From positions 75,370 through 139,369 of the forward strand of contig CAYNTF010000003.1 of NCBI GenBank assembly GCA_964400145.1: a DNA stretch of 64,000 nucleotides, read 5' to 3'. The translations under genes and the position numbers were made by a program. This document shows, piece after piece, positions 6,784 through 54,476 of the stretch. This stretch comes from an uncultured Lachnospiraceae bacterium. Lineage in GTDB: Bacteria; Bacillota; Clostridia; Christensenellales; UBA1242. Position 1 is the stretch's first letter, and each line of letters starts with the position of its first letter. The notes under the pieces are model-generated. The model saw nothing but the letters and a program-made list of their open reading frames with translations, was not told where the DNA came from and did no database searches.

Positions 6784-7956
6784 TTATTCATCAAGCGGTT
6801 CAACCGCCCAATTATTGAAGAAATCGCCCATTCTTTGCCAAATTGACTTAGGTTTGATTTCTTCTATTGTATAAATTTTTTCGGAAAATAGCAAGTCATT
6901 ATTCAAAAATATTTCAACTTTTCCAATTTCTGTGCCTTTTTCCAGCGGAGCTTCCACGCTTTGCGGATAGGTGTAGACAATTTTGATGTTTTCCAATTCG
7001 CTGTCAGTGAGCGGATAGACAAAACTTTCTTTGGTTCCAATTTTAGCGCTTTCCACTCGCCCGTCAACAACTTCAATCGTTTGGTTGTAGTCATAAAGTT
7101 CGGTTAAATCGTGAAGTTTGAAATTCTCTGCGCACTCTTGAAGCATGCTGGCACTTTCTGGAAACATAGGTCCACAATTAAGAACCACGCAAACAATTCT
7201 CATTCCGTCCTTTTCAATCGCAGAAACAAGACAGCGTCCCGCATCGTCTGTGAAGCCTGTTTTCACGCCTATGCACCCGTCAAGCGTGAAAAGAAGTTTG
7301 TTTTTGTTTTTCAAATATCTGTTTTCACCGTCGCCTTTTGTGATTTTGATGTTTTTTGTGCCGACAATCTCTCTGAAAGTGTCATTTTCCAACGCATAGG
7401 CAGTTATCAGCGCCAAGTCATAAGCGGTGGTGTAATGCCCGTCAGCGTCAAGCCCGTGCGTGTTGGCAAAGTGAGAATTTTCCGCCCCAATTTTACGCGC
7501 CAAATCATTCATCATCGTCACAAATTCGCTTGTCGAGCCAGCAACATGTTCAGCGATTGCCACAGAAGCGTCATTTCCAGAAATTAGCATCAAGGCATAC
7601 AAAAGGTCGCGCGTGGAATAGACATCGCCTTGTCGAAGATAGAGCGAAGTTCCCGGCACTCCAACTGCTTTTGGCGAAATTTCAAATTTTTCGTCAAGGT
7701 CAGTGCAATTTTCAAGCGCCGTGATTGCCGTCATAATTTTTGTCGTGCTTGCCATTGGAAGTTTTGCGTTTTCGTTGACAGCAAAAAGTTTTCGTTTTGT
7801 GGAAGTTTCAATCACCGCACAACCCTTTGCGGAAGTGTATAGATTGAGAGCGCTTGCGTTTAAACTGTATGTATTTGCAACTCCAAAAAAAAGGAAAATA
7901 GCACAGAAAGACAATATCACAAAAATCGAAAAAACCTTATTAATTCTCATCGACAT
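6784..7956 (-). CDS. D-alanyl-D-alanine carboxypeptidase (peptidase S11)
   Basis: Signal/TM segment, ASTTK (SxxK), SGND and KTG motifs. Start uncertain (7998, 7956 or 7950). Confidence 0.85.
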   Translation of the reverse strand: MSMRINKVFSIFVILSFCAIFLFFGVANTYSLNASALNLYTSAKGCAVIETSTKRKLFAVNENAKLPMASTTKIMTAITALENCTDLDEKFEISPKAVGVPGTSLYLRQGDVYSTRDLLYALMLISGNDASVAIAEHVAGSTSEFVTMMNDLARKIGAENSHFANTHGLDADGHYTTAYDLALITAYALENDTFREIVGTKNIKITKGDGENRYLKNKNKLLFTLDGCIGVKTGFTDDAGRCLVSAIEKDGMRIVCVVLNCGPMFPESASMLQECAENFKLHDLTELYDYNQTIEVVDGRVESAKIGTKESFVYPLTDSELENIKIVYTYPQSVEAPLEKGTEIGKVEIFLNNDLLFSEKIYTIEEIKPKSIWQRMGDFFNNWAVEPLDE

Positions 7957-12130: not shown

Positions 12131-13453
12131 TCAAGCCACTTGGTCAAACTCGTCACCGTTTTCAAGGTCAATGTTGTCTTCGTCATCAAATGTTCCAGCG
12201 CCTTCAACAATCTTCTCGGTCAAATAGCCACCTTCACCTGTGTGCGCTCTTGTTGCGTCAACATAATTGCTGTCAAAGGCAACATCACCAACCAAACTTG
12301 TGCAGTTATAGAACATATTTGTGCTGTCAGTCACTCTTGCAGTTGACCAACCTGTTCCCACATAAATTACTGTAAGAGTCTGACAATTATAAAACATCCT
12401 ACCCATATTTGTCACTCTGCTGGTGTTCCAACTTGACAGGTCTAATTCAGAGAGCTTTAAACAACGATAAAACATCATTTCCATGTTAACAACATTTCTT
12501 GTGTTCCAATTTGAAACATCAACATTTGTCAAATTTGTGCAATTACAAAACATATACTGCATATATTCCGCATTGCTGGTGTTCCAATTTGAAACATCAA
12601 CAGTTTCAATCGGAGTGCTATAAAACATAGCAACAAAATATATCACATTGCTCACATCCCAATTTGCAACATTTATTTCTGCTAATGACTGGCAAGCTTC
12701 AAACATACTCTGCATTCTTATCACTCTACCTACATTCCACTTTGAAACATCAAGTGTGTTTAGCAAGGTGCAACTATAAAACATCCAACCCATGTTAGTC
12801 ACATTGCTCACATCCCATTCTGAAACATCAAGAGTTGTCAGCAATCCGCAGTTATAAAACATATAACTCATATCCGTCACTTTGCTTGTATCAAAGCCAG
12901 AAACATCAAGTGTTGTCAAAGAATCGCAACCATAGAACATATAACTCATGTTTGTAACATTCTTTGTGTTGAAATTGTTCAGAACAATTTCTTCAACGGA
13001 TGCAAAATTATAGAATGCATATGACATGTCAGCATTCACAACAATATCTTTGGTTGAAAGGATATAGATTGTTGTTTCGTCATTGTCTGTAACGCGGTAT
13101 AACCCAATTTGTGCGCCGTTCCAAACATAACTTTCCGCTTCTTGCCCTTCCAAAACATTCACTCCGTTTTCGGTGTATGTGTATTCGCCGTCTTCGGTTT
13201 GGGTATACTCACCACTTTCGTCTTTGTCATAATAATCAAAGACAATTCTTGTCACTGTTTCGTTTTCTTCTTGATAATTCTCGTTATTTTTCAGCAATGT
13301 GTTCAAGTCTTGTCCGCTTGTTATGTCTGTTTTCTCCCCGCTTGAAAGATAAATTGGAAGAAAGATTGCCAGAAACAGAACTGCCACCACTGCCACAACC
13401 GATGCCGTGATAATCGCCACCTTCTTCTTTTTGTTTGTTTCATTTTCAGCCAT
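12131..13453 (-). CDS. DUF285/BspA-like leucine-rich-repeat surface protein, N-terminal TM anchor (paralog 1)
   Basis: Repeated ~25-aa units of the form NVTNMSYMFYGCxSLTTLDVSxWDxS. KKKK followed by a hydrophobic anchor. AAGGAGGT RBS. Confidence 0.85.
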   Translation of the reverse strand: MAENETNKKKKVAIITASVVAVVAVLFLAIFLPIYLSSGEKTDITSGQDLNTLLKNNENYQEENETVTRIVFDYYDKDESGEYTQTEDGEYTYTENGVNVLEGQEAESYVWNGAQIGLYRVTDNDETTIYILSTKDIVVNADMSYAFYNFASVEEIVLNNFNTKNVTNMSYMFYGCDSLTTLDVSGFDTSKVTDMSYMFYNCGLLTTLDVSEWDVSNVTNMGWMFYSCTLLNTLDVSKWNVGRVIRMQSMFEACQSLAEINVANWDVSNVIYFVAMFYSTPIETVDVSNWNTSNAEYMQYMFCNCTNLTNVDVSNWNTRNVVNMEMMFYRCLKLSELDLSSWNTSRVTNMGRMFYNCQTLTVIYVGTGWSTARVTDSTNMFYNCTSLVGDVAFDSNYVDATRAHTGEGGYLTEKIVEGAGTFDDEDNIDLENGDEFDQVA

Positions 13454-13518: not shown

Positions 13519-13545
13519 ATTATAGCATGCGGGGGGGGAACGCAA
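13519..13545 (-). promoter_or_regulatory. Extended -10 promoter with a C8 tract in the spacer: TTGCGT-T-C8-GCATGC-TATAAT
   Basis: Read directly from the minus strand. G8 at 13531-13538 on the + strand; TGC-TATAAT at 13527-13519; 15-bp spacer. Confidence 0.65.
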
Positions 13546-13582
13546 GCATTTTTAAAAATTTTCAGAAAAATTTTTAAAAATG
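13546..13582. repeat. AT-rich near-perfect 17-bp inverted repeat abutting the -35
   Basis: GCATTTTTAAAAATTTTC-AG-AAAAATTTTTAAAAATG. The same element recurs at 52285-52322. Confidence 0.7.
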
Positions 13583-13710
13583 TTGCTTTTTTTGCCAAAA
13601 TCAGCCCAAAATTGACCAAAATTCGCCCATTTTGCCCAAAAATTCACAAAAAAAATGTGAATTTAAACTCAATGAAATTCATAAAAAATTGAAAATTCGC
13701 CGTTCCAAAC

Positions 13711-13745: not shown

Positions 13746-13762
13746 ATCAAATGTCTTTATAT

Positions 13763-13818
13763 ATGATTTTGTTAATCTTATCAACCTAATACATGATTTT
13801 GTTAATCTTATCAACCTA
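13763..13818. repeat. Tandem direct repeat, 2 copies with a 30-bp period
   Basis: ATGATTTTGTTAATCTTATCAACCTA at 13763-13788 and 13793-13818, 26/26 identical. Confidence 0.9.
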
Positions 13819-35233: not shown

Positions 35234-35266
35234 CAAAAAAGACAAGGGGCGTTAAAGCACCTTGTC
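35234..35266 (-). terminator. Terminator overlapping the P2 stop codon
   Basis: Duplicate of the terminator at 34395-34427. Confidence 0.6.
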
Positions 35267-35896
35267 AGTTTCTGCAAGTTTAGTTGTTGAAATTTCATCT
35301 TCAGTCGTGTCGTCAATGACATTCTCAGGCAATGTCACAGTCGTTGTTCCAATGTCACTGAAAACACACAATCCACCTGGGGCTTTATAGTAAATTTCCC
35401 CATTATTTACACTCATTTGAATTGAATAGCCATCTTGTGTTCCTGACAATACATTTTCTTCTTCATTATATGACGACCAGTTAATTGTTTCTAATAATGT
35501 TGTTGAAAAAGTACGGAAAATTTCAATAAAATATGGGTCATCCATAATTTCAGTCTTCCAATATCCATCGTCATCCTGCGACATTTGATAAAGGATATCA
35601 TTTTCAGTGTAACAATATTTAAGATCACCTAAATATAGATACTCCACTAAATCACCATCAAATTTGAAATAATAGACCAGTCGATTATTAAGATATCTAG
35701 TATAAGTGAAATTATTCATTTCTTGAACAGCAGTCAAGCGTTCTGTTACTTCTTCAACCGCGTTTTCAAAAACTTCTTCTTGCCTTTTTTCTTCTTCACT
35801 CATGAACAACTCACACCCAGCAAAAGCGAATGCTGTGGTTAGAGAAATTCCGGAAGCAAGCGCAAGTGTGGCAAATTTTTTAAGATTTCCTTTCAT
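35252..35896 (-). CDS. Lipoprotein paralog P2
   Basis: Lipobox FAFAGC. A G7 run (35903-35909) acts as the SD, 6 nt before ATG 35896. Confidence 0.7.
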   Translation of the reverse strand: MKGNLKKFATLALASGISLTTAFAFAGCELFMSEEEKRQEEVFENAVEEVTERLTAVQEMNNFTYTRYLNNRLVYYFKFDGDLVEYLYLGDLKYCYTENDILYQMSQDDDGYWKTEIMDDPYFIEIFRTFSTTLLETINWSSYNEEENVLSGTQDGYSIQMSVNNGEIYYKAPGGLCVFSDIGTTTVTLPENVIDDTTEDEISTTKLAETDKVL

Positions 35897-35923
35897 AAAC
35901 ATCCCCCCCTTCTTCCTATGTCA

Positions 35924-41316: not shown

Positions 41317-42735
41317 ATGGCAACAAAAAACAATAAAATTGAAAACAAATTGGAAAAAATTGCAAAAGTCAAAAACAAATGGTGTCTTTGTGATGAAAAA
41401 AGCAAGAAAGTGGTGTTTGACTTTGCGGAAAAATATAAATCTTTCATTTCAGACAACAAAACAGAGCGCGAATGTTTGGAATACGCTGTCAGCGAAGCAA
41501 AAAAACATGGATTCATAGATTTGAAAGATGCAATCAAAAAGAAAACAAAACTCAAGGCTGGCGACAAAGTCTATGCCGTCATTCAAGACAAGTCGATTGT
41601 GATGTTTGTGCTTGGCACGGACGATTTGGAAAAAGGCTTAAACATTCTTGGCGCACACATCGACAGTCCACGCCTTGATTTGAAGTCATCTCCGCTTTAT
41701 GAAAAAAATGGATTTTGTCTTTTTGACACGCATTATTACGGCGGAATAAAGAAATATCAATGGGTGACCATACCCCTTGCCATGCACGGCGTTGTGGTGA
41801 AAAAGGATGGCACAGTCATAAAAGTGAACATTGGCGAAAATGGAACCGACCCTGTTTTCTACATCTCCGACCTTCTCCCACATTTGAAAAAAGAGAAGTC
41901 AGCAGAAGAAGTCAGTGGCGAGCAGTTGGATGTTGTTGTTGGAAATATGTCTTTCAAGAACGAGAGCGAAAAGCGCGAGATTGTCATCGAAAATTTGCGC
42001 AAAATTCTTTCTTCTCACAACATTGAAGAGGATGATTTAATCAGCGCCGAACTTGAAATTGTCCCAGCGGGCAAAGCGCGCGACATGGGCTTGGATCGCT
42101 CAATGATTGTGGGCTATGGTCAAGATGACCGCTCGTGCGCCTACACATCCCTTCAAGCAATTTTCGAATGCGAAAAGCCAAAGCGCACCGCCGTTTGTCT
42201 TTTGGTGGACAAGGAAGAGATTGGAAGTTATGGCGCAACAGGAATGAAAAGTCGTTTCTTTGAAAATATGGTTGCGGAAGTTATCAATCTCATGGGCGAA
42301 TACAGCGGACTTAAACTCAAAAGATGTCTAAACAATTCCAACATGATTTCCAGCGATGTCACAGCGGGATATGACCCAACATGGGCGTCGTCATACAACA
42401 TTCAAACGGACGCATTTTTGGCGTGCGGACTCACATTCAACAAATACACCGGCGCTCGCGGAAAAAGCGGTTCGAACGACGCCTCGCCTGAATACATTGC
42501 CCAACTTCGCAAAATTTTGGACGACAACAACCTTTTCTATCAGTTCACCGAAATGGGTAAAGTTGACCAAGGTGGCGGTGGAACAATCGCCTACATTTTG
42601 GCGGAATATGGCATGAATGTCATCGACGCCGGCATTCCACTTCTTTCCATGCACGCACCATGGGAAGTTTCTTCGAAACTTGATGTTTATCACGCCTACC
42701 TTTTCTACAAAGCTTTTTTGAAAGATATGAAGTGA
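41317..42735 (+). CDS. M18-family aminopeptidase
   Basis: GAHIDSPRLDLK, DDRSCAY and MHAP... motifs; 472 aa. Confidence 0.75.
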   Translation: MATKNNKIENKLEKIAKVKNKWCLCDEKSKKVVFDFAEKYKSFISDNKTERECLEYAVSEAKKHGFIDLKDAIKKKTKLKAGDKVYAVIQDKSIVMFVLGTDDLEKGLNILGAHIDSPRLDLKSSPLYEKNGFCLFDTHYYGGIKKYQWVTIPLAMHGVVVKKDGTVIKVNIGENGTDPVFYISDLLPHLKKEKSAEEVSGEQLDVVVGNMSFKNESEKREIVIENLRKILSSHNIEEDDLISAELEIVPAGKARDMGLDRSMIVGYGQDDRSCAYTSLQAIFECEKPKRTAVCLLVDKEEIGSYGATGMKSRFFENMVAEVINLMGEYSGLKLKRCLNNSNMISSDVTAGYDPTWASSYNIQTDAFLACGLTFNKYTGARGKSGSNDASPEYIAQLRKILDDNNLFYQFTEMGKVDQGGGGTIAYILAEYGMNVIDAGIPLLSMHAPWEVSSKLDVYHAYLFYKAFLKDMK

Positions 42736-42901
42736 GATAGAAATCAAAATTTAATCTAAATTAAAAACATAAAAAATAAAATAAAAAATGAAATAGGGAA
42801 TGAAAAAGATAACTATAAAAACAAAATAAATCAAACAATTAAATCGCCTAAAAAACAGATTAAAACAAAAAAAGTGACATCAATTTGTCACTTTTTTTCG
42901 A

Positions 42902-43912
42902 TCAATCTTTATCTTTGCCGTCACGCTTTTCATTCACATGGAACTCTTCATCATAAAGTTTTCTGCTTCTTTCATTCAAAATATTTTTTTTATCAGGGAT
43001 TTCTCTCCCCAAAGCTTTCAATTCATTGCAAAATCTTTTCACTTCATTGTCATAAATGTAGGTAAAATCTTTATAAATCTTTCTTGTATCACGCGCTATT
43101 TTTTTAAATAAAGCATCTTCTTCATTTAACCCTTCTTGCTTTTCTCTCATTGAGTCAAGAAGTCCATCGCAAGCATGATTATAACATATTGTATAATTAT
43201 TTAAATTAATTGAGTCATCACAGGCGATAATATCAGAAATTCTGGCTTGACCATCTGGAAGTTCTGCCACTTCTGACAACCTAAGCATCAATTTGACACT
43301 TTCTGAAAACTCTGTGCTGATTTTAAGATATCTGAAAAGCTCCGGATCTTCCTTTACCATATCAAAAAGTTTTGTATCAAACCCGCTGTAACCATTATTA
43401 CCAGTTATATAAATTGTATCACTATGTTTAATTATCTCTTCTTTTTTGTCAGTAGTTTTCGAAACGGCGGTTTTTGGAGCAGCGTTTTTGTTTTGTTTAG
43501 CGCCGGCCGTTGCTGTCATCTCTATCAATTCATCAACACTTTGTGGAACTTTTTCCGTTGGCTTTTTCTCAACAACCTTTCCAAAAACTTCTTTGTCAAT
43601 ATCATCGTTGTAAAACTCAATAGAATTTAACTGACTTGCGATTTCAAGAATCATGTGATTTTCCTCTTTGGAAAATCTCTTTCCAGAGCGTGAGTTTTGA
43701 ATTTTGACATCCGAAAACTGTTGAGATAAGCGCTCAACATCCCGTCTTGTTTTAGCAATATTTTTTTCAATCTTTTGCTTTTGTTTATCGGTGAATTTTT
43801 GATTTATCGGTGAAAACATATCTTTGCTAAACATTTGGCTAACAGCAGCCAAATTATTCTTGCATTCATTCAATTTTGCATGTATGTTCGTCAATTTTTT
43901 AATTGTGTTCAT
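42902..43912 (-). CDS. Hypothetical protein, 336 aa; coiled-coil N-terminus; no signal peptide
   Basis: Long ORF; GGGGAAATG start context 8 nt after the upstream gene's stop. No motif I recognise. Confidence 0.7.
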   Translation of the reverse strand: MNTIKKLTNIHAKLNECKNNLAAVSQMFSKDMFSPINQKFTDKQKQKIEKNIAKTRRDVERLSQQFSDVKIQNSRSGKRFSKEENHMILEIASQLNSIEFYNDDIDKEVFGKVVEKKPTEKVPQSVDELIEMTATAGAKQNKNAAPKTAVSKTTDKKEEIIKHSDTIYITGNNGYSGFDTKLFDMVKEDPELFRYLKISTEFSESVKLMLRLSEVAELPDGQARISDIIACDDSINLNNYTICYNHACDGLLDSMREKQEGLNEEDALFKKIARDTRKIYKDFTYIYDNEVKRFCNELKALGREIPDKKNILNERSRKLYDEEFHVNEKRDGKDKD

Positions 43913-43920
43913 TTCCCCTC

Positions 43921-44445
43921 CTAGTCCCCGAGAGTTTTGCCATCACTAATTTTATAAGTGTGACTCATGATTGGTTTTGGTTCAGAATATTCTCTTTCGG
44001 TTGCATAATTCAAAAAAACTGAACCATATTCATCTGTTTGCATAACTTGCCTTTCAACATAATCGCTTTCACTGACATCCACCTTAATTTGCCCGTTGCT
44101 TAAAAGACCAAGTTTTTGGATAGTCTTGCCAAAATCCTCAACTTTTTTGCCTAATTTTGACATGAATTCATCTCGTGCACACGCATATGCACCATTTTCA
44201 AAAAAGAATTTTTCAACAAATTGCCTAAATGATGAATCATATTTGTTGAAAATCACTTCTTCAAGGTCTTCAAAAAGCCCAAAATTGTCATTCCAACTTC
44301 TTCTTCCAAACCTATTATCGCCTTCGATGGACATTTGAATGCAAATTGTGTTCCCATTTTGCTCTTTTGCAAGAGGGTTGGTTGAAGGCTTCATAAAGTC
44401 ACCTCCAATCTCAAAATCAAATTGGTCATGTGTTCTTGTATTCAT
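43921..44445 (-). CDS. Hypothetical protein, ~174 aa; no signal peptide
   Basis: GGAGGT 8 nt before ATG 44445 (MNTRTHDQ...). The ATG at 44460 is too close to the -10 element. Confidence 0.7.
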   Translation of the reverse strand: MNTRTHDQFDFEIGGDFMKPSTNPLAKEQNGNTICIQMSIEGDNRFGRRSWNDNFGLFEDLEEVIFNKYDSSFRQFVEKFFFENGAYACARDEFMSKLGKKVEDFGKTIQKLGLLSNGQIKVDVSESDYVERQVMQTDEYGSVFLNYATEREYSEPKPIMSHTYKISDGKTLGD

Positions 44446-44471
44446 TGTTTTTACCTCCATTATTTTTTGCC

Positions 44472-44500
44472 ATTATAGCACGGGGGGGGGAACTTGTCAA
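44472..44500 (-). promoter_or_regulatory. Perfect consensus promoter TTGACA-17-TGcTATAAT with a C9 tract in the spacer
   Basis: Minus strand reads TTGACA AGTT C9 GTGC TATAAT. G9 lies at 44482-44490 on the + strand. Confidence 0.75.
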
Positions 44501-44872
44501 GTATTTTTTTAAAAAAGTTTATTTTTTGTTTAATTTCACTATTTTTGTCAATTTTTTTTGATTTTGACAATTTTTTGGTTATGATTTTGGCAAGTTTTTG
44601 AATGTTTCTTACTTTTTTGTTTCTTTTCATTTTTTCTAAATTTTCGTTAACTTTCTTCATTTTAGCAATGTTTTGGCTAAACAAAAATTTAAACAATAAA
44701 AATATATAACAAAAAACAAGTCAAGAAATCACCTAAACAAACATAAAAACATAATAACATAATAAACAAAAAACAACTCACCAAATGTAAAACAAACCAA
44801 GTTCAAAACAACTTAACAAGGCGAAATAAAGAAGATAAAGAATAATTCGGAATAAAAATTTAAGTAAATATA

Positions 44873-48472: not shown

Positions 48473-49033
48473 TTATTTGGTTTTTATACCATTATATTCA
48501 AGTATAGATTTGCTTTTACTTACATACTTATTATAATTATCCAAATATGTTCGTCCAAAAGCATTCGTCATCTCAGAAACAAAAGCATTTTGAGAAATCT
48601 CTTCTTGTTTTCGTTCTTCTTGAGAAGTTTGGAAATGTAAATTTCCTTTACTATCACTTTCCATAATAGGAAAATCTTGAGCAATCAAATTTTTATTCTG
48701 TTTATATGAACTATTAAGCAATAGATTTGTAAAGTGTAAATTATAATCGCTTATTGATACATAACCCACCTTCTGCTCTTCCATTGTTTTTTTGTTCAAT
48801 TTAATGATTTTTAACATTACTATTTTTTCATTTTTGCTGTAATCAACTCTTTTTATACATCCAGCAACTTTTTTATATTCATAATTCAAAATTTCATAGA
48901 ACATGCTGTCATACCATTCTTTTGGATAATGCATCTCCGTTGATTTTTTTGCAATATATTTAATATTGTCATCGTTTAGCAAGTCTAAATATCCATTGAT
49001 AAAATAATCTAAATGGTGATTTCTAACGGTCAT
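48473..49033 (-). CDS. Hypothetical 186-aa protein inserted between rpsG and fusA
   Basis: AAAGGAGAG 6 nt before the ATG; clean ORF. Much more AT-rich than its neighbours. No motif I recognise. Confidence 0.7.
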
Positions 49034-50618: not shown

Positions 50619-50705
50619 GTGTTTTTATCAAGAAAATTAAGTTTTTTAAAAAACAATCTTTCAAGTGTGTTCAGTTTTTTGTGAGGACAAATAATGAGTG
50701 TCGAT

Positions 50706-52091
50706 TCAGTCATTGTCACCGTCAAGGTTGCCAGTGGCTTTTTCGCTGATGTCGGTCAAATAGCCATAAGCCTGCAACTCTTCTTTGTATCCAGCATAGG
50801 CGTATGTTTTGTTCGTGACACTTCCATTTTCAGTGAAATTTGGAAGAGATGTGCATCTAGAGAACATTGATGAATCAGTTTCAACCGCATCTGTTGACCA
50901 GCCTTCACCAACATAGATTGTTTCAAGGCTTGTGCAACCAGTGAACATACAATACATATTCGTCACTTTGCTGGTGTCAAAGCTTGAAATGTCTATTGAA
51001 GTCACATTTCCTAAACCTGCAAACATATATTCCATGTCTGTCACATCACTTGTGTTAAAATTCGACAAATCTAATTCTCCAGTTAAACCTGCCCAAGCAA
51101 ACATCCATTTCATATCTGTGGCACTGCTGGTGTTCCAATTTGAAAGAAAATCAATTCCTGTCAATTTAAAGCAGTTAAAAAACATACCATTAAATTCCTT
51201 CACATTGCTTACATCCCAATTTGATATATCACCAAAATTTGTTAACTTTTCACAAGTACCAAACATCCAACTCATGCTTGTCACACTGCTTACATCCCAA
51301 TTTGAAAGGTCAACTTCTTCCAAAGCGCTACAGCCACTGAACAAATTAAACATTTCTATCACATTGCTTGTATCCCACTTGGAAACATCAATAGTTGTCA
51401 AAGAACTGCAGTGGAGAAACAAAGACCCCATACTTGTCACATTACTCGTGTTCCAATTTGAAACATCAAGTTCGTCTAAAGATCTACAACCTGCAAACAT
51501 TGTCCACATGCTTGTCACATTGCTCACATCCCACTTGGAAACATCAAGCGTTGTCAAAGAACTGCAATTATAAAACATCCACCCCATATCTGTCACACTG
51601 CTTGTGTTGAAATTGTTGAAAGCAATCTCTTCAACGGATGTAAAATTATAGAATGAATATGATGCATCTTCATTTGCAACAATTTCTTCGGTTGAAAGGA
51701 TGTAGATTGTTGTGTCAACGCGATATAAGTCAATCTGTGTTTTGTTCCAAGTGTATGACTCCGCTGTTTGCCCTTCCAAAACATTTACATCATCTTCGGT
51801 GTAAGTATAGTTGCCATCCTCGGTTTGTGTATAGGCACCACTTTCGTCTTTGTCATAGTAGTCAAAAACAATTCTCTTCACTGTGGTGTCTTCCGCTGTG
51901 TAACTATCACTTTTTTTCAACAATGTGTTCAAAGTCGAACCGCTTGGCAAATTTGTGTTGTCTGTTTCACTTGATTTTTGAGTGAGATAGATTGGAAGAA
52001 AAATCGCCAGAAACAGAACCGCCACCACGCCTACAACTGACGCTGTGATGATTGCCACCTTTTTCTTTTTGTTTGTTTCATTTTCAGCCAT
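50706..52091 (-). CDS. DUF285/BspA-like leucine-rich-repeat surface protein (paralog 2)
   Basis: The same N-terminal ~170 aa as paralog 1 (MAENETNKKKKVAIITASVV...); divergent repeats of the form SVTDMGWMFYNCSSLTTLDVSKWDVSNVT. Confidence 0.85.
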   Translation of the reverse strand: MAENETNKKKKVAIITASVVGVVAVLFLAIFLPIYLTQKSSETDNTNLPSGSTLNTLLKKSDSYTAEDTTVKRIVFDYYDKDESGAYTQTEDGNYTYTEDDVNVLEGQTAESYTWNKTQIDLYRVDTTIYILSTEEIVANEDASYSFYNFTSVEEIAFNNFNTSSVTDMGWMFYNCSSLTTLDVSKWDVSNVTSMWTMFAGCRSLDELDVSNWNTSNVTSMGSLFLHCSSLTTIDVSKWDTSNVIEMFNLFSGCSALEEVDLSNWDVSSVTSMSWMFGTCEKLTNFGDISNWDVSNVKEFNGMFFNCFKLTGIDFLSNWNTSSATDMKWMFAWAGLTGELDLSNFNTSDVTDMEYMFAGLGNVTSIDISSFDTSKVTNMYCMFTGCTSLETIYVGEGWSTDAVETDSSMFSRCTSLPNFTENGSVTNKTYAYAGYKEELQAYGYLTDISEKATGNLDGDND

Positions 52092-52256
52092 TTTTTAATA
52101 ACCTCCCTTTAATATTTTTTCTTTTGGCTTTTTCATAGTTTTTGCATAACCAACCATATATATAAGTTCAATTTGTCAGTTTTCACTGATTTCAATCCGA
52201 CGCGCAGATTTCAAATCTTGACGAATTATATAGTCAGTTTTCGCAAACCCAATACC

Positions 52257-52284
52257 ATTGTAGCATGCGGGGGGGGGAAGGCAA
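52257..52284 (-). promoter_or_regulatory. Extended -10 promoter with a C9 tract in the spacer: TTGCCT-T-C9-GCATGC-TACAAT
   Basis: G9 at 52269-52277 on the + strand; 16-bp spacer. Confidence 0.6.
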
Positions 52285-52322
52285 GCATTTTTAAAAATTT
52301 TCAGAAAATTTTTTAAAAATGC
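52285..52322. repeat. AT-rich inverted repeat abutting the -35 (copy of 13546-13582)
   Basis: GCATTTTTAAAAATTTTC-A-GAAAATTTTTTAAAAATGC. Confidence 0.7.
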
Positions 52323-52517
52323 TTGTATTTTTCCAAAAAATCAGCCCAAAATTGACCAAAAATTGCTCATTTTGCCAAAAATTCATAAAAAAATGACAAA
52401 TTTTCGCTCATCATTTCTCAAAAAAATATCAAAAAAAGTTGTAAATTTAACAAAAAAAATGCCAATTCCTGCAAGAAATTGACATAAAAAATTTTACTTT
52501 TTTCAATTACACAAAAA

Positions 52518-54476
52518 TCACAGCGAAAATTTTTCGAAAAACTCGCTCTCATTCAAAATCGCAACTCCCAAACTCTTCGCTTTGTCAAGTTTGCTCCCCG
52601 CTTCTTCACCAGCAAGAACATAGGATGTATTTTTCGAAACTGACGACGCTGTTTTTCCGCCGTTCTCTTCAATAATCTTTGTCATCTCAGCGCGTGAATG
52701 GTTCGGCAATGTTCCCGTCAGCACAAAAGTCAGTCCAGAAAGTTTGCTCGATTTTGCTTCATCCACCTTTTCAATCTCCACGCCAACTTCAAAGAGTTTT
52801 TCAATCTCATCCAAGTTGTCTTGGTTCTTGAAAAAGTCCACTATGTTTTGCGCGATAATTTCTCCAACATCTTCAATCATGCACAACTGTTCACATGTGG
52901 CACTTTTGATTTGGTCAAGATTTTTGTATGTCTTTGTCAAATCTTTCGCCGTCTTGATGCCAACTTCGCTTATGCCCAGCGCGAACAAAAAGCGATAAAA
53001 TTCAATTTTTTTGCTTTTTTCAAGGCTTTTTATGCAATTTTCCGCCTTCTTTTCTGCAAATTTCTCCAAATTTACAAGTTGCTCTTTTGTCAGTTTGAAT
53101 AGGTCGGAATATTGGCGCAAGCCCAAATCGTCATAGAACTGAATTATGGTTTTCTCGCTTAAACCCTCAATATTGAACGCTTCGCGACTGACAAAATGCG
53201 TCAGCCTTGCAACAACTTGCTCTTTGCAACCGTCGTGATTTGGACAAAAAATGAGCGGTCCTTTCTTTATCAAAACACTTTCGCAACATGGGCAATTTTT
53301 TGGTTCATAAATTGGAAGTGAGTTGTCATATTTTTCCGCCAGCCCCAAAACTTCTGGAATAACTTCGTTTGAACGGCGGATGAAAACTCGGCTCTTCAAA
53401 AAGACATTCTTCTTTCTTATGTCTTCAATGTTGTTGAGTGTTGCACGGCTTATCGTTGCCCCCGCAAGTTCGACAGGCTCTAGGATTGCCGTTGGAGTCA
53501 CCTTTCCGCTTCTGCCCACTTGCCAAACAACATCTTCAAGCATGGTGGAAACTTCTTCGGCTTCAAACTTGAACGCTCTTGCCCACTTTGGAAATTTGTT
53601 GGTGTAACCAATCTCTTCACGCGGGCCAACTTCGTTGAGTTTGATGACAAGCCCGTCAATCATGACATCAAGGTCATTCTTCTTTTTATCGATTTCATCA
53701 ATGATTTTTTCCGCTTCTTCTTCCGTTTTAACCACCTTGAAAAAATCGCCTGTTTTGAAACCATTATCTTTCAAAAATTTGTTCATCTCTGCCTGTGTTT
53801 GAAATTTTTTGCCTTCCGATAACAAAACTGCATAGCAAAAATAATCAAGTTGCCTGCGCGCTGTTTCTTTTGGGTCAAGGTTTCGAATTGCGCCAGCAAC
53901 TCCATTTCTTGGGTTTTTAAGTGGTTCGCTTGCCGTTTTGTTATAACGCTTGAAACTTGAATTTGTCATCATACCTTCACCCTGCAAAATCAGACGGCTC
54001 TTGAAAGGAATTTCAAGCGGAACACTTCGAATTGTCTTAACCTGCTCTGTGACATCTTCGCCAATCTCGCCGTTTCCGCGAGTTGTGGCACAAACAAAAT
54101 GACCACCGTCATATTCTGTCACGATTGTCAAACCATCGAATTTATACTCCACGGCAAAGGTTGGATTTTTCACAAACTTTTTCATCTCAACGAAAAAATC
54201 TTTAAGTTCGTCAAAAGAGCGAACCTTGTTCATTGAATATAATCTCACTTCGTGTTTTTTCTTGACGAATTTCGAAAGAACATCCCCGCCCACGCGTTGA
54301 GTTGGTGAGTTTGGAAGAACAACACTTAACTCTTTTTCAAGGTCAACAAGTTCGTCATAGAGTTTGTCATATTCCTTGTCGGAAATGGTTGGATTATCAA
54401 GTTCGTAATAGTTGCGATTATGAATCAAAAGTTCGCTCACCAACGATTTCATCCTTTCAAGTTTTTTATTATCCAT
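52518..54476 (-). CDS. ligA: NAD-dependent DNA ligase
   Basis: EYKFDGL adenylation motif, Cys4 zinc finger, HhH and BRCT domains; 652 aa. Confidence 0.95.
   Translation of the reverse strand: MDNKKLERMKSLVSELLIHNRNYYELDNPTISDKEYDKLYDELVDLEKELSVVLPNSPTQRVGGDVLSKFVKKKHEVRLYSMNKVRSFDELKDFFVEMKKFVKNPTFAVEYKFDGLTIVTEYDGGHFVCATTRGNGEIGEDVTEQVKTIRSVPLEIPFKSRLILQGEGMMTNSSFKRYNKTASEPLKNPRNGVAGAIRNLDPKETARRQLDYFCYAVLLSEGKKFQTQAEMNKFLKDNGFKTGDFFKVVKTEEEAEKIIDEIDKKKNDLDVMIDGLVIKLNEVGPREEIGYTNKFPKWARAFKFEAEEVSTMLEDVVWQVGRSGKVTPTAILEPVELAGATISRATLNNIEDIRKKNVFLKSRVFIRRSNEVIPEVLGLAEKYDNSLPIYEPKNCPCCESVLIKKGPLIFCPNHDGCKEQVVARLTHFVSREAFNIEGLSEKTIIQFYDDLGLRQYSDLFKLTKEQLVNLEKFAEKKAENCIKSLEKSKKIEFYRFLFALGISEVGIKTAKDLTKTYKNLDQIKSATCEQLCMIEDVGEIIAQNIVDFFKNQDNLDEIEKLFEVGVEIEKVDEAKSSKLSGLTFVLTGTLPNHSRAEMTKIIEENGGKTASSVSKNTSYVLAGEEAGSKLDKAKSLGVAILNESEFFEKFSL

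What the first reader, a model, noticed from the sequence alone, without database searches (positions are those of the whole stretch)
52257..52284. C9 tract in the promoter spacer of DUF285 surface-protein paralog 2 (spacer 16 bp)
The minus strand reads TTGCCT-T-CCCCCCCCC-GCATGC-TACAAT. This is homologous to the paralog-1 promoter but carries one more C and a TACAAT -10. Two paralogous surface genes with independently set tract lengths (C8 versus C9) is what a combinatorial phase-variation system looks like.
Basis: partly seen in the sequence, partly recalled or inferred. Interest (0 to 1): 0.65.

Follow-up and report, generated by a model that had tools for sequence, protein, structure and literature searches.

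The report
Poly-C tract inside surface-protein gene promoter
A run of nine C's sits exactly between the two recognition boxes of the promoter of a surface-protein gene in an uncultured gut Clostridia bacterium, which is the classic design of a slippage-driven expression switch, but switching has not been observed.

Summary
The minus strand 52284..52257 reads TTGCCT-T-C9-GCATGC-TACAAT: a 16-nt spacer and a TGn extended -10. It lies about 165 nt upstream of a 461-aa DUF285/PARCEL protein with an N-terminal membrane anchor.

- **Tract distribution:** The window has only three G/C runs of 8 or more (0.18 expected), and all three lie in -35/-10 spacers. They are paralog 1 (C8, spacer 15), paralog 2 (C9, spacer 16) and an unrelated orphan two-gene locus (C9, spacer 17, perfect consensus).
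- **Promoter conservation:** The paralog promoter core differs by 3 substitutions plus one C in the tract over 64 nt. Four-fold sites in the genes differ at 34 of 93 (p=2e-6).
- **Sister species:** It lacks both C9 loci. In the same ligA-rpsL gap it carries two intragenic G9 tracts, each one G short of an open or coupled frame.

The best reading is a transcriptional contingency switch of the porA/fetA/vlp kind. PARCEL genes with 5' repeat switches are already described in mycoplasmas, so this is a new member of a known kind.

No tract-length variation was seen. The only tract covered by several assemblies is C9 in all three, and those are the same strain.

The parts
52279..52284 (-). -35 hexamer TTGCCT of the paralog-2 promoter
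   Evidence: Read and listed by the promoter scan. Its TTG is the end of the proximal palindrome arm.
52269..52277 (-). C9 homopolymer tract in the promoter spacer (G9 on the + strand)
   Evidence: It is one of only three G/C runs of 8 or more in the window (0.18 expected).
52257..52268 (-). GCATGC, whose TG-C forms a TGn extended -10 motif, followed by the -10 hexamer TACAAT (52262-52257)
   Evidence: one search reports 'TG_before_second: yes'. Paralog 1 has the same GCATGC followed by TATAAT.
52282..52325 (.). 44-bp A/T-rich palindrome (20-nt arms, 95% complementary, 4-nt centre) that abuts and overlaps the -35; a candidate operator or UP-like element
   Evidence: pair I1. It is conserved in paralog 1 (13547-13582, 16-nt arms, 100% complementary).
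52326..52440 (-). Upstream region with T-tracts phased at about 11 bp (curved-DNA signature). It is homologous to the paralog-1 upstream region out to about 52393.
   Evidence: (86.6% identity over 157 nt).
52459..52485 (-). Terminator-like hairpin plus T-run after ligA, which isolates the paralog-2 transcription unit
52141..52248 (-). 5'UTR segment containing a roughly 100-nt insertion specific to paralog 2. It folds into a long hairpin and carries a weak second promoter-like site (TTGGGT-16-TATAAT).
   Evidence: Alignment; fold (dG -32.3 kcal/mol, z = -3.0). The second promoter was read from the sequence and does not meet the scanner's rule.
52102..52107 (-). Shine-Dalgarno sequence GGGAGG, 10 nt upstream of the ATG
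50706..52091 (-). Paralog 2 coding sequence: 461 aa, with an N-terminal KKKK plus hydrophobic anchor, a conserved N-domain, 8 PARCEL/DUF285 repeats and a conserved C-terminus
13519..13545 (-). Paralog-1 promoter TTGCGT-T-C8-GCATGC-TATAAT (tract 13531-13538, spacer 15)
   Evidence: It is not listed by the 16-18-nt scanner.
12131..13453 (-). Paralog 1 coding sequence (440 aa, DUF285/PARCEL)
   Evidence: It is 57% identical in amino acids to paralog 2.
44472..44500 (-). Third poly-C promoter, TTGACA-AGTT-C9-GTGC-TATAAT (tract 44482-44490, spacer 17, 12 of 12 matches plus TG). It drives orphan genes 43921-44460 and 42902-43912.
   Evidence: The tract is C9 in Logan contigs from three samples.

Best explanation
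The site is a sigma-A (sigma-70-type) promoter for a membrane-anchored PARCEL/DUF285 leucine-rich-repeat surface protein. Its -35/-10 spacer consists mostly of a hypermutable poly-C tract.

The proposed mechanism is slipped-strand mispairing during replication, which adds or removes a C. Each change alters the hexamer spacing (C8 = 15, C9 = 16, C10 = 17 nt) and rotates the palindrome and -35 relative to the -10 by about 34 degrees per base. Transcription is therefore set heritably but reversibly.

As assembled, paralog 2 (16 nt, TACAAT) would be in a reduced or intermediate state. Paralog 1 (15 nt) would be low or off. The unrelated orphan locus (17 nt, perfect consensus) would be fully on. 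Each paralog carries its own tract behind a shared promoter cassette, so a population could display different combinations of paralogs.

- Shown: the anatomy, the non-random placement of the tracts, the constraint on the cassette, and the surface-protein identity.
- Inferred: that the site is the active promoter, that the tract length changes at high frequency, and that tract length controls expression.
For: 1. The sequence is exact and includes an extended -10.
2. Only three G/C runs of 8 or more occur in 64 kb, against 0.18 expected. All three lie in -35/-10 spacers, on the coding strand of the downstream gene. Two of them are evolutionarily independent: the paralog cassette and the third locus.
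3. The G/C homopolymer census is discontinuous: 18, 1, 1, 1 and 2 for lengths 5 to 9.
4. The promoter core (palindrome to -10, 64 aligned nt) differs between paralogs by 3 substitutions, and its only gap is one C in the tract. By contrast, 34 of 93 four-fold sites in the coding sequences differ (Fisher p=2e-6). The cassette is therefore constrained while the tract has changed length.
5. The promoter has flanking features of a real, isolated promoter: a terminator after ligA, a 44-bp palindrome at the -35, T-tracts phased at 11 bp and a strong Shine-Dalgarno sequence.
6. The product is a PARCEL/DUF285 protein with an N-terminal anchor. It belongs to a family of at least 7 paralogs with conserved ends and variable repeat numbers.
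7. Both C9 loci are absent from a sister species (81-92% nucleotide identity). That species carries two G9 tracts in small ORFs in the same ligA-rpsL gap. One ORF becomes a full-length 107 aa at G10. The other leader ORF ends in an ATGA overlap with the next gene at G10. G/C tracts therefore mark accessory genes across the genus.
8. There is precedent. fetA and porA have spacer tracts (PMC5320596). PARCEL genes with 5' repeat contingency loci and combinatorial expression are described in Mycoplasma capricolum (PMC2996958). Campylobacter tracts equilibrate at G9-G10 and switch at 1e-4 to 1e-3 per division (PMC8355987).
Against: - No length variation was observed at this tract. No second copy of the locus could be retrieved.
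- The third-locus tract is C9 in all three Logan assemblies. They are 100% identical to the window, so they represent one strain at consensus level.
- The TGn extended -10 makes sigma-A promoters less dependent on the -35 and on spacing (established knowledge). The effect may therefore be graded rather than ON/OFF.
- The 5'UTR insertion specific to paralog 2 contains TTGGGT-16-TATAAT, a possible tract-independent promoter (read).
- The mismatch-repair status of the organism is unknown.
- A distant family member in another organism (P0148) has no tract and sits inside an operon. The tract is therefore not a family-wide trait.
- The hexamer match by itself is not above chance.
Confidence: 0.55

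Rival explanations
1. The promoter is real, but the poly-C run is an essentially static, inherited spacer element. The C8/C9 difference would be one old indel fixed after gene duplication. Expression of the paralogs would be set by ordinary regulation, for example a protein binding the 44-bp palindrome, and not by stochastic switching.
For: Three assemblies of the third locus agree on C9. Silent-site divergence between the paralogs is high (about 37%), so a single indel in the tract over that time is not many. The extended -10 reduces dependence on spacing. The conserved palindrome suggests conventional regulation.
Against: This reading does not explain why every G/C run of 8 or more in the window sits in a promoter spacer. 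It also does not explain why the sister species places G9 tracts where they break reading frames. G/C runs of 8-9 are intrinsically unstable in all bacteria studied (PMC8355987, PMC1891110). The three Logan assemblies are one strain, and consensus calls hide minority lengths.
Confidence: 0.25
2. Phase variation operates, but through activator or repressor phasing rather than -35/-10 spacing. The tract would set the distance and helical face between a regulator bound to the palindrome (centred about 53 bp upstream of the predicted start) and the extended -10, as in the Bordetella fim promoters.
For: The 20-nt-arm palindrome overlaps the -35 and is conserved in both paralogs. The -35 hexamers are weak (TTGCCT, TTGCGT) while the -10 carries a TGn extension.
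Against: The third poly-C promoter has no such palindrome and has a perfect TTGACA at 17 nt. No regulator gene lies next to either paralog. A/T-rich palindromes are common in this A/T-rich DNA (16 inverted pairs in 431 nt).
Confidence: 0.1
3. The C8-versus-C9 difference, or the lengths themselves, are an assembly or polishing artefact at homopolymers.
For: The source is a metagenome-assembled genome. Homopolymers of 8 or more are error-prone. Neither paralog tract could be checked in an independent assembly, because the Logan contigs stop at 13613 inside the shared cassette.
Against: The independent Logan assemblies are 100% identical to the window over 2.8, 2.4, 1.8, 1.8 and 1.0 kb and reproduce C9 at the third locus three times. 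An artefact could change a count by one, but it could not create three tracts placed precisely in promoter spacers.
Confidence: 0.07
4. The tract-bearing site is not the operative promoter of paralog 2. Transcription would start from the TTGGGT-16-TATAAT site inside the 5'UTR insertion specific to paralog 2, making the C9 tract irrelevant for this paralog.
For: A perfect TATAAT with a TTG-type -35 at 16 nt lies about 25 nt downstream of the main -10, and only in paralog 2.
Against: That site has only 3 of 6 matches in the -35 and no TG extension, and the scanner does not call it. The upstream cassette is conserved with paralog 1, which lacks the insertion.
Confidence: 0.1

Closest known systems
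Neisseria porA (poly-G) and fetA/frpB and opc (poly-C) promoter-spacer tracts
   Same: A G/C homopolymer lies between the -35 and -10 of a surface-protein gene. Tract length sets the hexamer spacing and so the transcription level (PMC5320596, citing van der Ende 1995 and Carson 2000).
   Different: Those are Gram-negative pathogens and single genes, not a paralog family sharing one promoter cassette. Their tracts are usually longer (10-14). Variation and its effect on expression are shown experimentally there and not here.
Mycoplasma hyorhinis vlp family (poly-A in the promoter spacer); from my own knowledge of Yogev, Citti and Wise
   Same: It is a multigene family of surface proteins with conserved 5' regions and leader sequences and variable repeat regions. 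Each gene sits behind its own homopolymer in the -35/-10 spacer, which gives combinatorial ON/OFF display.
   Different: The tract is poly-A rather than poly-C. The products are lipoproteins of a wall-less Mollicute and the genes are clustered. Here the host is a spore-former (germination protease), the genes are scattered, and the proteins have an N-terminal membrane anchor with no lipobox.
PARCEL/DUF285 contingency genes of Mycoplasma capricolum and the mycoides cluster (Wise 2006; Roske 2010, PMC2996958), and the M. agalactiae drp and spma families (PMC2824730)
   Same: The protein repeat family is the same (DUF285/TIGR02167). Homopolymeric or dinucleotide repeats lie in the 5' flank of some PARCEL ORFs, and combinatorial expression has been proposed. 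The spma genes each carry a poly-G tract in the 5' untranslated region.
   Different: The lineage is different (Clostridia rather than Mollicutes). The repeat is poly-C placed exactly in the spacer. The promoter cassette has a 44-bp palindrome. The N-terminal domain is different and is also found as a module in giant proteins.
Treponema pallidum tpr genes (poly-G upstream of paralogous surface-protein genes); from my own knowledge of Giacani 2007
   Same: It is a paralog family in which each gene has its own G/C homopolymer of about 7-12 nt near the promoter, and tract length correlates with transcription.
   Different: The tract position relative to the hexamers differs, and the organism and protein family are different.
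Bordetella pertussis fim2/fim3 poly-C promoters (PMC1891110 for homopolymer variation; mechanism from my own knowledge)
   Same: A poly-C tract lies between an upstream protein-binding site and the -10 of a surface-structure gene.
   Different: That system needs the BvgA activator and uses tracts of 13-15 C. No activator is identified here.

Membership tests
Transcriptional phase variation by a homopolymer in the promoter spacer (porA/fetA/vlp type) | A homopolymer long enough to slip (about 8 or more G/C) lies between recognisable -35 and -10 hexamers upstream of the gene | tested here: met
   TTGCCT-T-C9-GCATGC-TACAAT at 52284-52257. The terminator-isolated unit, Shine-Dalgarno sequence and coding sequence lie downstream.
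Transcriptional phase variation by a homopolymer in the promoter spacer (porA/fetA/vlp type) | Tract length varies reversibly within populations or between close strains | tested here: inconclusive
   No reads were available. No orthologous copy was found. The paralogous promoters differ by exactly one C. The third tract is C9 in three same-strain assemblies.
Transcriptional phase variation by a homopolymer in the promoter spacer (porA/fetA/vlp type) | Expression level depends on tract length | not testable with these tools
   This needs reporter fusions, transcript mapping, or metatranscriptomes stratified by tract length. The only evidence here is the inference from 15, 16 and 17-nt spacers. 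Paralog 1 falls outside the scanner's 16-18 window.
Transcriptional phase variation by a homopolymer in the promoter spacer (porA/fetA/vlp type) | The controlled gene is a contingency-type function (surface-exposed, accessory, variable between strains) | tested here: met
   The product is a DUF285/PARCEL repeat protein with an N-terminal anchor. The locus is absent from the sister species at the syntenic ligA-rpsL gap.
PARCEL / DUF285 (BspA-type LRR) surface proteins | Tandem repeats of about 25-26 aa that match DUF285/TIGR02167 above the curated cut-offs | tested here: met
   PF03382 scores 198 bits against a cut-off of 25. TIGR02167 scores 259 bits against a cut-off of 30, with 8 repeats. 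The DNA has a 78-nt repeat period.
PARCEL / DUF285 (BspA-type LRR) surface proteins | An export or anchoring signal | tested here: met
   MAENETNKKKKVAIITASVVGVVAVLFLAIFLPIYL has a positive cluster followed by a hydrophobic helix of about 22 residues. It is invariant across the 7 paralogs. There is no lipobox cysteine. No dedicated predictor was run.
Mycoplasma mycoides-cluster modular contingency cassette (Vmm/Vmc type) | A (TA)n dinucleotide repeat in the spacer, and a lipoprotein signal peptide | tested here: not met
   The repeat is poly-C and the N-terminus has no lipobox. The site works like this family but is not a member.
Invertible promoter (inverton) | Inverted repeats flanking the promoter, plus a nearby site-specific recombinase | tested here: not met
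   The only flanking pair (52170-52192 / 52380-52402) is 78% complementary, which is at the level of the other 15 chance pairs. No recombinase was found among the neighbouring genes scanned.

The most novel reading that the evidence does not exclude
A spore-forming gut Clostridia lineage may run a mycoplasma-style combinatorial surface-coat switch. At least seven PARCEL/DUF285 paralogs would each sit behind a shared curved-DNA and palindrome promoter cassette with an individually set poly-C spacer. This would be part of a genus-wide set of G/C-tract contingency loci: promoter-spacer tracts here, and frame-setting and translational-coupling G9 tracts in the sister species, concentrated in the same intergenic hot spots. 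It would show that repeat-based phase variation, not only invertible promoters, shapes surface display in commensal Firmicutes.
Probability: 0.35. Interest if true: 0.55.

Novelty: new member of a known kind. Interest (0 to 1): 0.4.

Why it matters
Phase variation through simple repeats has been worked out almost entirely in pathogens such as Neisseria, Haemophilus, Campylobacter, Helicobacter and the mycoplasmas. In gut commensals, attention has gone mostly to invertible promoters.

If these tracts switch, an uncultured spore-forming Clostridia lineage would be using the same low-cost mechanism to vary a family of leucine-rich-repeat surface proteins. That is relevant to immune or phage evasion and to host attachment.

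It would also matter for metagenomics. Homopolymer lengths in such genomes would be population variables rather than fixed characters. The claim can be tested directly with the existing reads. If the tracts are static, the finding reduces to an unusual but ordinary promoter spacer.

Tried and rejected
- **Promoter pattern scans.** I scanned for the promoter with a variable tract (TGCTTGCNTTCCCCCC N0-9 GCATGCTA). There were 0 hits in genome contigs and 0 in metagenome contigs.
- **Family-alignment scans.** Scanning both collections with the family alignment returned only distant relatives (34% and 36% identity) with no usable upstream DNA.
- **Exact-protein look-ups.** Look-ups for paralog 2, P0001, P0002, P0004, EF-G and LigA returned nothing. 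The window's own assembly appears not to be retrievable, so the other five paralog promoters could not be read.
- **N-terminal search.** A word-index search with the N-terminal 164 aa found nothing. The exhaustive HMMER search found 49 representatives. The one distant member I could fetch (P0148, three samples) has no tract and lies in an operon.
- **Logan contigs next to paralog 1.** These contigs end at 13613, 75 nt short of the tract, inside the shared cassette. No independent check of C8 was possible.
- **Inverton hypothesis.** I rejected it because the flanking inverted repeat is weak and at chance level, and no recombinase is nearby.
- **RNA families.** Rfam found no family in the 5'UTR; the window has only 4 tRNAs.
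- **Third-locus proteins.** Pfam, PHROGs, PADLOC, NCBIfam and PDB sequence searches gave nothing for the 179-aa and 336-aa proteins.
- **Sample origin.** A literature search for SRR7039257 returned nothing.
- **Sister-species tract.** The flanks of sister-species tract 1 (GCTTGC-C9-GCA on its minus strand) resemble the window promoter. No -10 follows and the similarity is too short, so I did not pursue it.

Full report
**Observation**

The minus strand from 52284 to 52257 reads TTGCCT-T-CCCCCCCCC-GCATGC-TACAAT. The tract is C9 at 52277-52269 and the spacer is 16 nt. The TG at 52265-52264 gives a TGn extended -10. The consensus scanner returns the same site (TTGCCT/16/TACAAT, 9 of 12, TG yes).

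The hexamer match alone is not significant: 8 promoter-like sites were found in the region against 6.3 in shuffles. The tract is significant. Runs of C8 or more occur at three places in the window, against 0.18 expected, and none of 100 shuffles reaches the observed count. G/C homopolymers number 18, 1, 1, 1 and 2 for lengths 5, 6, 7, 8 and 9. That is a clear break from a geometric decline.

**Three tracts, all in promoter spacers**

- Paralog 1 reads TTGCGT-T-C8-GCATGC-TATAAT at 13545-13519, with a 15-nt spacer. The 16-18-nt scanner therefore does not list it.
- Paralog 2 is the finding itself, with a 16-nt spacer.
- A third site, not mentioned in the finding, reads TTGACA-AGTT-C9-GTGC-TATAAT at 44500-44472. 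It has a 17-nt spacer, 12 of 12 hexamer matches and TG. It lies upstream of two orphan genes, 43921-44460 (179 aa) and 42902-43912 (336 aa).

In all three sites the C's are on the coding strand of the downstream gene, and a TGn motif precedes the -10. Promoter spacers make up roughly 1-2% of the sequence. Two evolutionarily independent placements (the paralog cassette and the third locus) are therefore very unlikely by chance. This last point is inference.

**The gene**

ORF 50706-52091 encodes a 461-aa protein that matches DUF285 (E=3.5e-59) and the PARCEL repeat model TIGR02167 with 8 repeats. Its N-terminus, MAENETNKKKKVAIITASVVGVVAVLFLAIFLPIYL, has a positive cluster followed by a hydrophobic helix and no lipobox. 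This predicts an N-in, C-out membrane anchor; I read this from the sequence and ran no predictor.

The closest database proteins are five further paralogs, 57-68% identical. One lies on a contig of the same length (168,436 bp) as the contig that carries the window's EF-G. Exact look-ups were attempted for three of the five (P0001, P0002, P0004) and failed, as they did for the window's EF-G and LigA. I infer that all five belong to the same assembly.

The seven proteins share nearly invariant N-terminal (about 170 aa) and C-terminal parts and differ in the number and sequence of repeats. The N-terminal domain is rare: 49 representatives among 1.84 billion. It also occurs as a repeated module in giant proteins.

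**The promoter cassette**

The upstream regions of paralogs 1 and 2 align for about 190 nt. From the palindrome through the -10 (64 aligned nt) there are 3 substitutions, and the only gap is one C in the tract. Within the coding sequences, 34 of 93 four-fold degenerate sites differ, including 8 of 19 in the first 40 codons, which are 97% identical at the protein level. Fisher's exact test gives p=2e-6. The cassette is therefore under constraint or homogenised, and the one length change it has sustained is in the tract.

Other features of the cassette:
- A 44-bp palindrome with 20-nt arms, 95% complementary, at 52282-52325. Its proximal arm ends in the TTG of the -35. It is conserved in paralog 1.
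- T-tracts phased at about 11 bp over 160 nt upstream, a curved-DNA signature.
- A terminator-like hairpin after ligA, which isolates the transcription unit.
- A GGGAGG Shine-Dalgarno sequence.

Paralog 2 alone has a roughly 100-nt insertion in its 5'UTR. It folds into a long hairpin (dG -32.3 kcal/mol, z -3.0) and has no Rfam match. It contains TTGGGT-16-TATAAT, a weak possible second promoter that the scanner does not call.

**Comparative evidence**

The organism is an uncultured Clostridia bacterium. This rests on the EF-G cluster name and on the germination protease and Ku genes in the window.

A sister species (GCA_964594865.1, locus L002) is syntenic at 81-92% nucleotide identity. It lacks both the paralog-2 locus (window 50626-52579) and the third locus (window 42733-44866). 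In the same ligA-rpsL gap it has different small genes with two G9 tracts inside reading frames. Simulating tract lengths shows that one ORF is truncated at 38 aa with G9 and becomes 107 aa at G10 or G7. The other is a leader ORF that at G10 or G7 ends in an ATGA overlap with the following 141-aa ORF. More distant relatives (L003-L005) have no G/C run of 7 or more in 10-22 kb. In this genus, G/C tracts of 8-9 therefore mark strain-specific accessory genes at recurrent intergenic positions, which is the pattern expected of contingency loci.

**What could not be shown**

No orthologous copy of the paralog-2 promoter exists in the searchable collections, and the other paralogs' DNA is not retrievable. 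Logan contigs from three runs (SRR7039257, SRR7039262 and SRR7039263) are 100% identical to the window and all carry C9 at the third locus. This argues against an assembly artefact. It says nothing about minority lengths, because the contigs are consensus sequences of one strain.

Contigs next to paralog 1 stop at 13613 inside the shared cassette. That is consistent with further copies of the cassette elsewhere in the genome, but it leaves C8 unverified. A distant family member (P0148) has no tract and sits in an operon, so the tract is specific to this lineage.

**Mechanism**

The best-supported explanation is transcriptional phase or "volume" variation by slipped-strand mispairing in the spacer. 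C8, C9 and C10 give spacers of 15, 16 and 17 nt. As assembled, paralog 1 is predicted low or off, paralog 2 intermediate (and weakened further by TACAAT), and the orphan locus fully on. These predictions come from established knowledge of sigma-70/sigma-A spacer dependence and were not tested here.

The observed lengths (8, 9, 9, and 9, 9 in the sister species) match the G9-G10 equilibrium reported for Campylobacter, where switching occurs at 1e-4 to 1.6e-3 per division (PMC8355987).

Caveats:
- The TGn extension reduces dependence on the -35.
- A possible second promoter exists in the 5'UTR insertion.
- The mismatch-repair status of the organism is unknown.

A variant of this explanation is that the tract phases a palindrome-bound regulator relative to the -10, as in Bordetella fim. 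The third locus lacks the palindrome, which argues that spacing alone is the common denominator.

**Comparison with known systems**

Spacer homopolymers controlling surface-protein genes are textbook in Neisseria (fetA poly-C, porA poly-G; PMC5320596). From my own knowledge, they also control the Mycoplasma hyorhinis vlp family, where each paralog has its own tract and display is combinatorial.

For this same protein repeat family, Roske et al. (PMC2996958) note homopolymeric or dinucleotide contingency loci in the 5' flanks of PARCEL ORFs in M. capricolum. They cite Wise et al. 2006 on combinatorial expression. The M. agalactiae spma genes each carry a poly-G tract in the 5'UTR (PMC2824730).

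The present case works like these systems, but it is not a member of the mycoplasma Vmm/Vmc cassette: it has no TA repeat and no lipoprotein signal. What is new is the host lineage (a spore-forming, uncultured Clostridia), the poly-C cassette with its palindrome, and the genus-level pattern of G/C tracts.

**Verdict**

The architecture and context fit a contingency switch, but neither switching nor independence has been demonstrated.
- Novelty: new member of a known kind.
- Interest is moderate (0.4).

Noticed in passing
window 44472-44500 (promoter), 43921-44460 and 42902-43912 (genes): This is a third poly-C promoter with perfect consensus (TTGACA, 17 nt including C9, TGn, TATAAT). It drives two orphan cytoplasmic-looking proteins (179 and 336 aa) with no Pfam, NCBIfam, PHROGs, PADLOC or PDB match. 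The whole 2.1-kb locus is absent from the sister species between tuf and the M18 peptidase gene. The tract is C9 in three Logan assemblies.
   Followed up: partly
L002 6984-7075 and 7533-7855 (sister species GCA_964594865.1, ligA-rpsL gap): Two G9 tracts (7007-7015 and 7598-7606) lie inside small ORFs. At G10 or G7 the second ORF becomes a 107-aa Cys-rich protein instead of 38 aa. At G10 or G7 the first leader ORF ends in an ATGA overlap with the 141-aa ORF at 7072, which suggests phase-variable translational coupling.
   Followed up: partly
window 52282-52325 and 13547-13582: A 44-bp A/T-rich palindrome (CAAGCATTTTTAAAAA...TTTTTAAAAATGCTTG) overlaps the -35 of both paralog promoters. It is a candidate operator for an unidentified dimeric regulator, or an UP-like element.
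   Followed up: partly
window 52141-52248: Paralog 2 alone has a roughly 100-nt insertion in its 5'UTR. It folds into a long hairpin (dG -32.3 kcal/mol, z -3.0), is flanked by a 10-nt direct repeat GAAAACTGAC (52175-52184 and 52233-52242), has no Rfam match and has no other copy in the window. It may be a small inserted element or an mRNA stabiliser or attenuator.
   Followed up: partly
window 35903-35909: A G7 run on the coding (minus) strand forms or abuts the Shine-Dalgarno sequence (GAAGGGGGGGATGTTTATG) of a predicted lipoprotein gene (35252-35902, signal peptide ending FAGC). It is the only other G/C run longer than 6 in the window and might tune translation.
   Followed up: no
window 13613 (ends of L007 and L008): Logan contigs from two samples both stop at exactly 13613, inside the upstream cassette shared by the paralogs. 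This implies that further near-identical copies of the cassette exist elsewhere in the genome.
   Followed up: no
window 48473-49033 (also L002 9419-9979): A 186-aa ORF with no family match is inserted between rpsG and fusA in the otherwise conserved str operon. It is present in the sister species and absent from the more distant relatives L003-L005.
   Followed up: no
window 13759-13818: A 30-nt direct repeat occurs twice at 96% identity (ATACATGATTTTGTTAATCTTATCAACCTA), upstream of the terminator that precedes the paralog-1 cassette.
   Followed up: no
(proteins P0137, P0139, P0140): The roughly 120-aa N-terminal domain of the paralogs (residues about 46-164) recurs 10-14 times in giant proteins of 5,300-7,400 aa from other metagenomes. 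It is therefore an independent extracellular module and not just a leader region.
   Followed up: no
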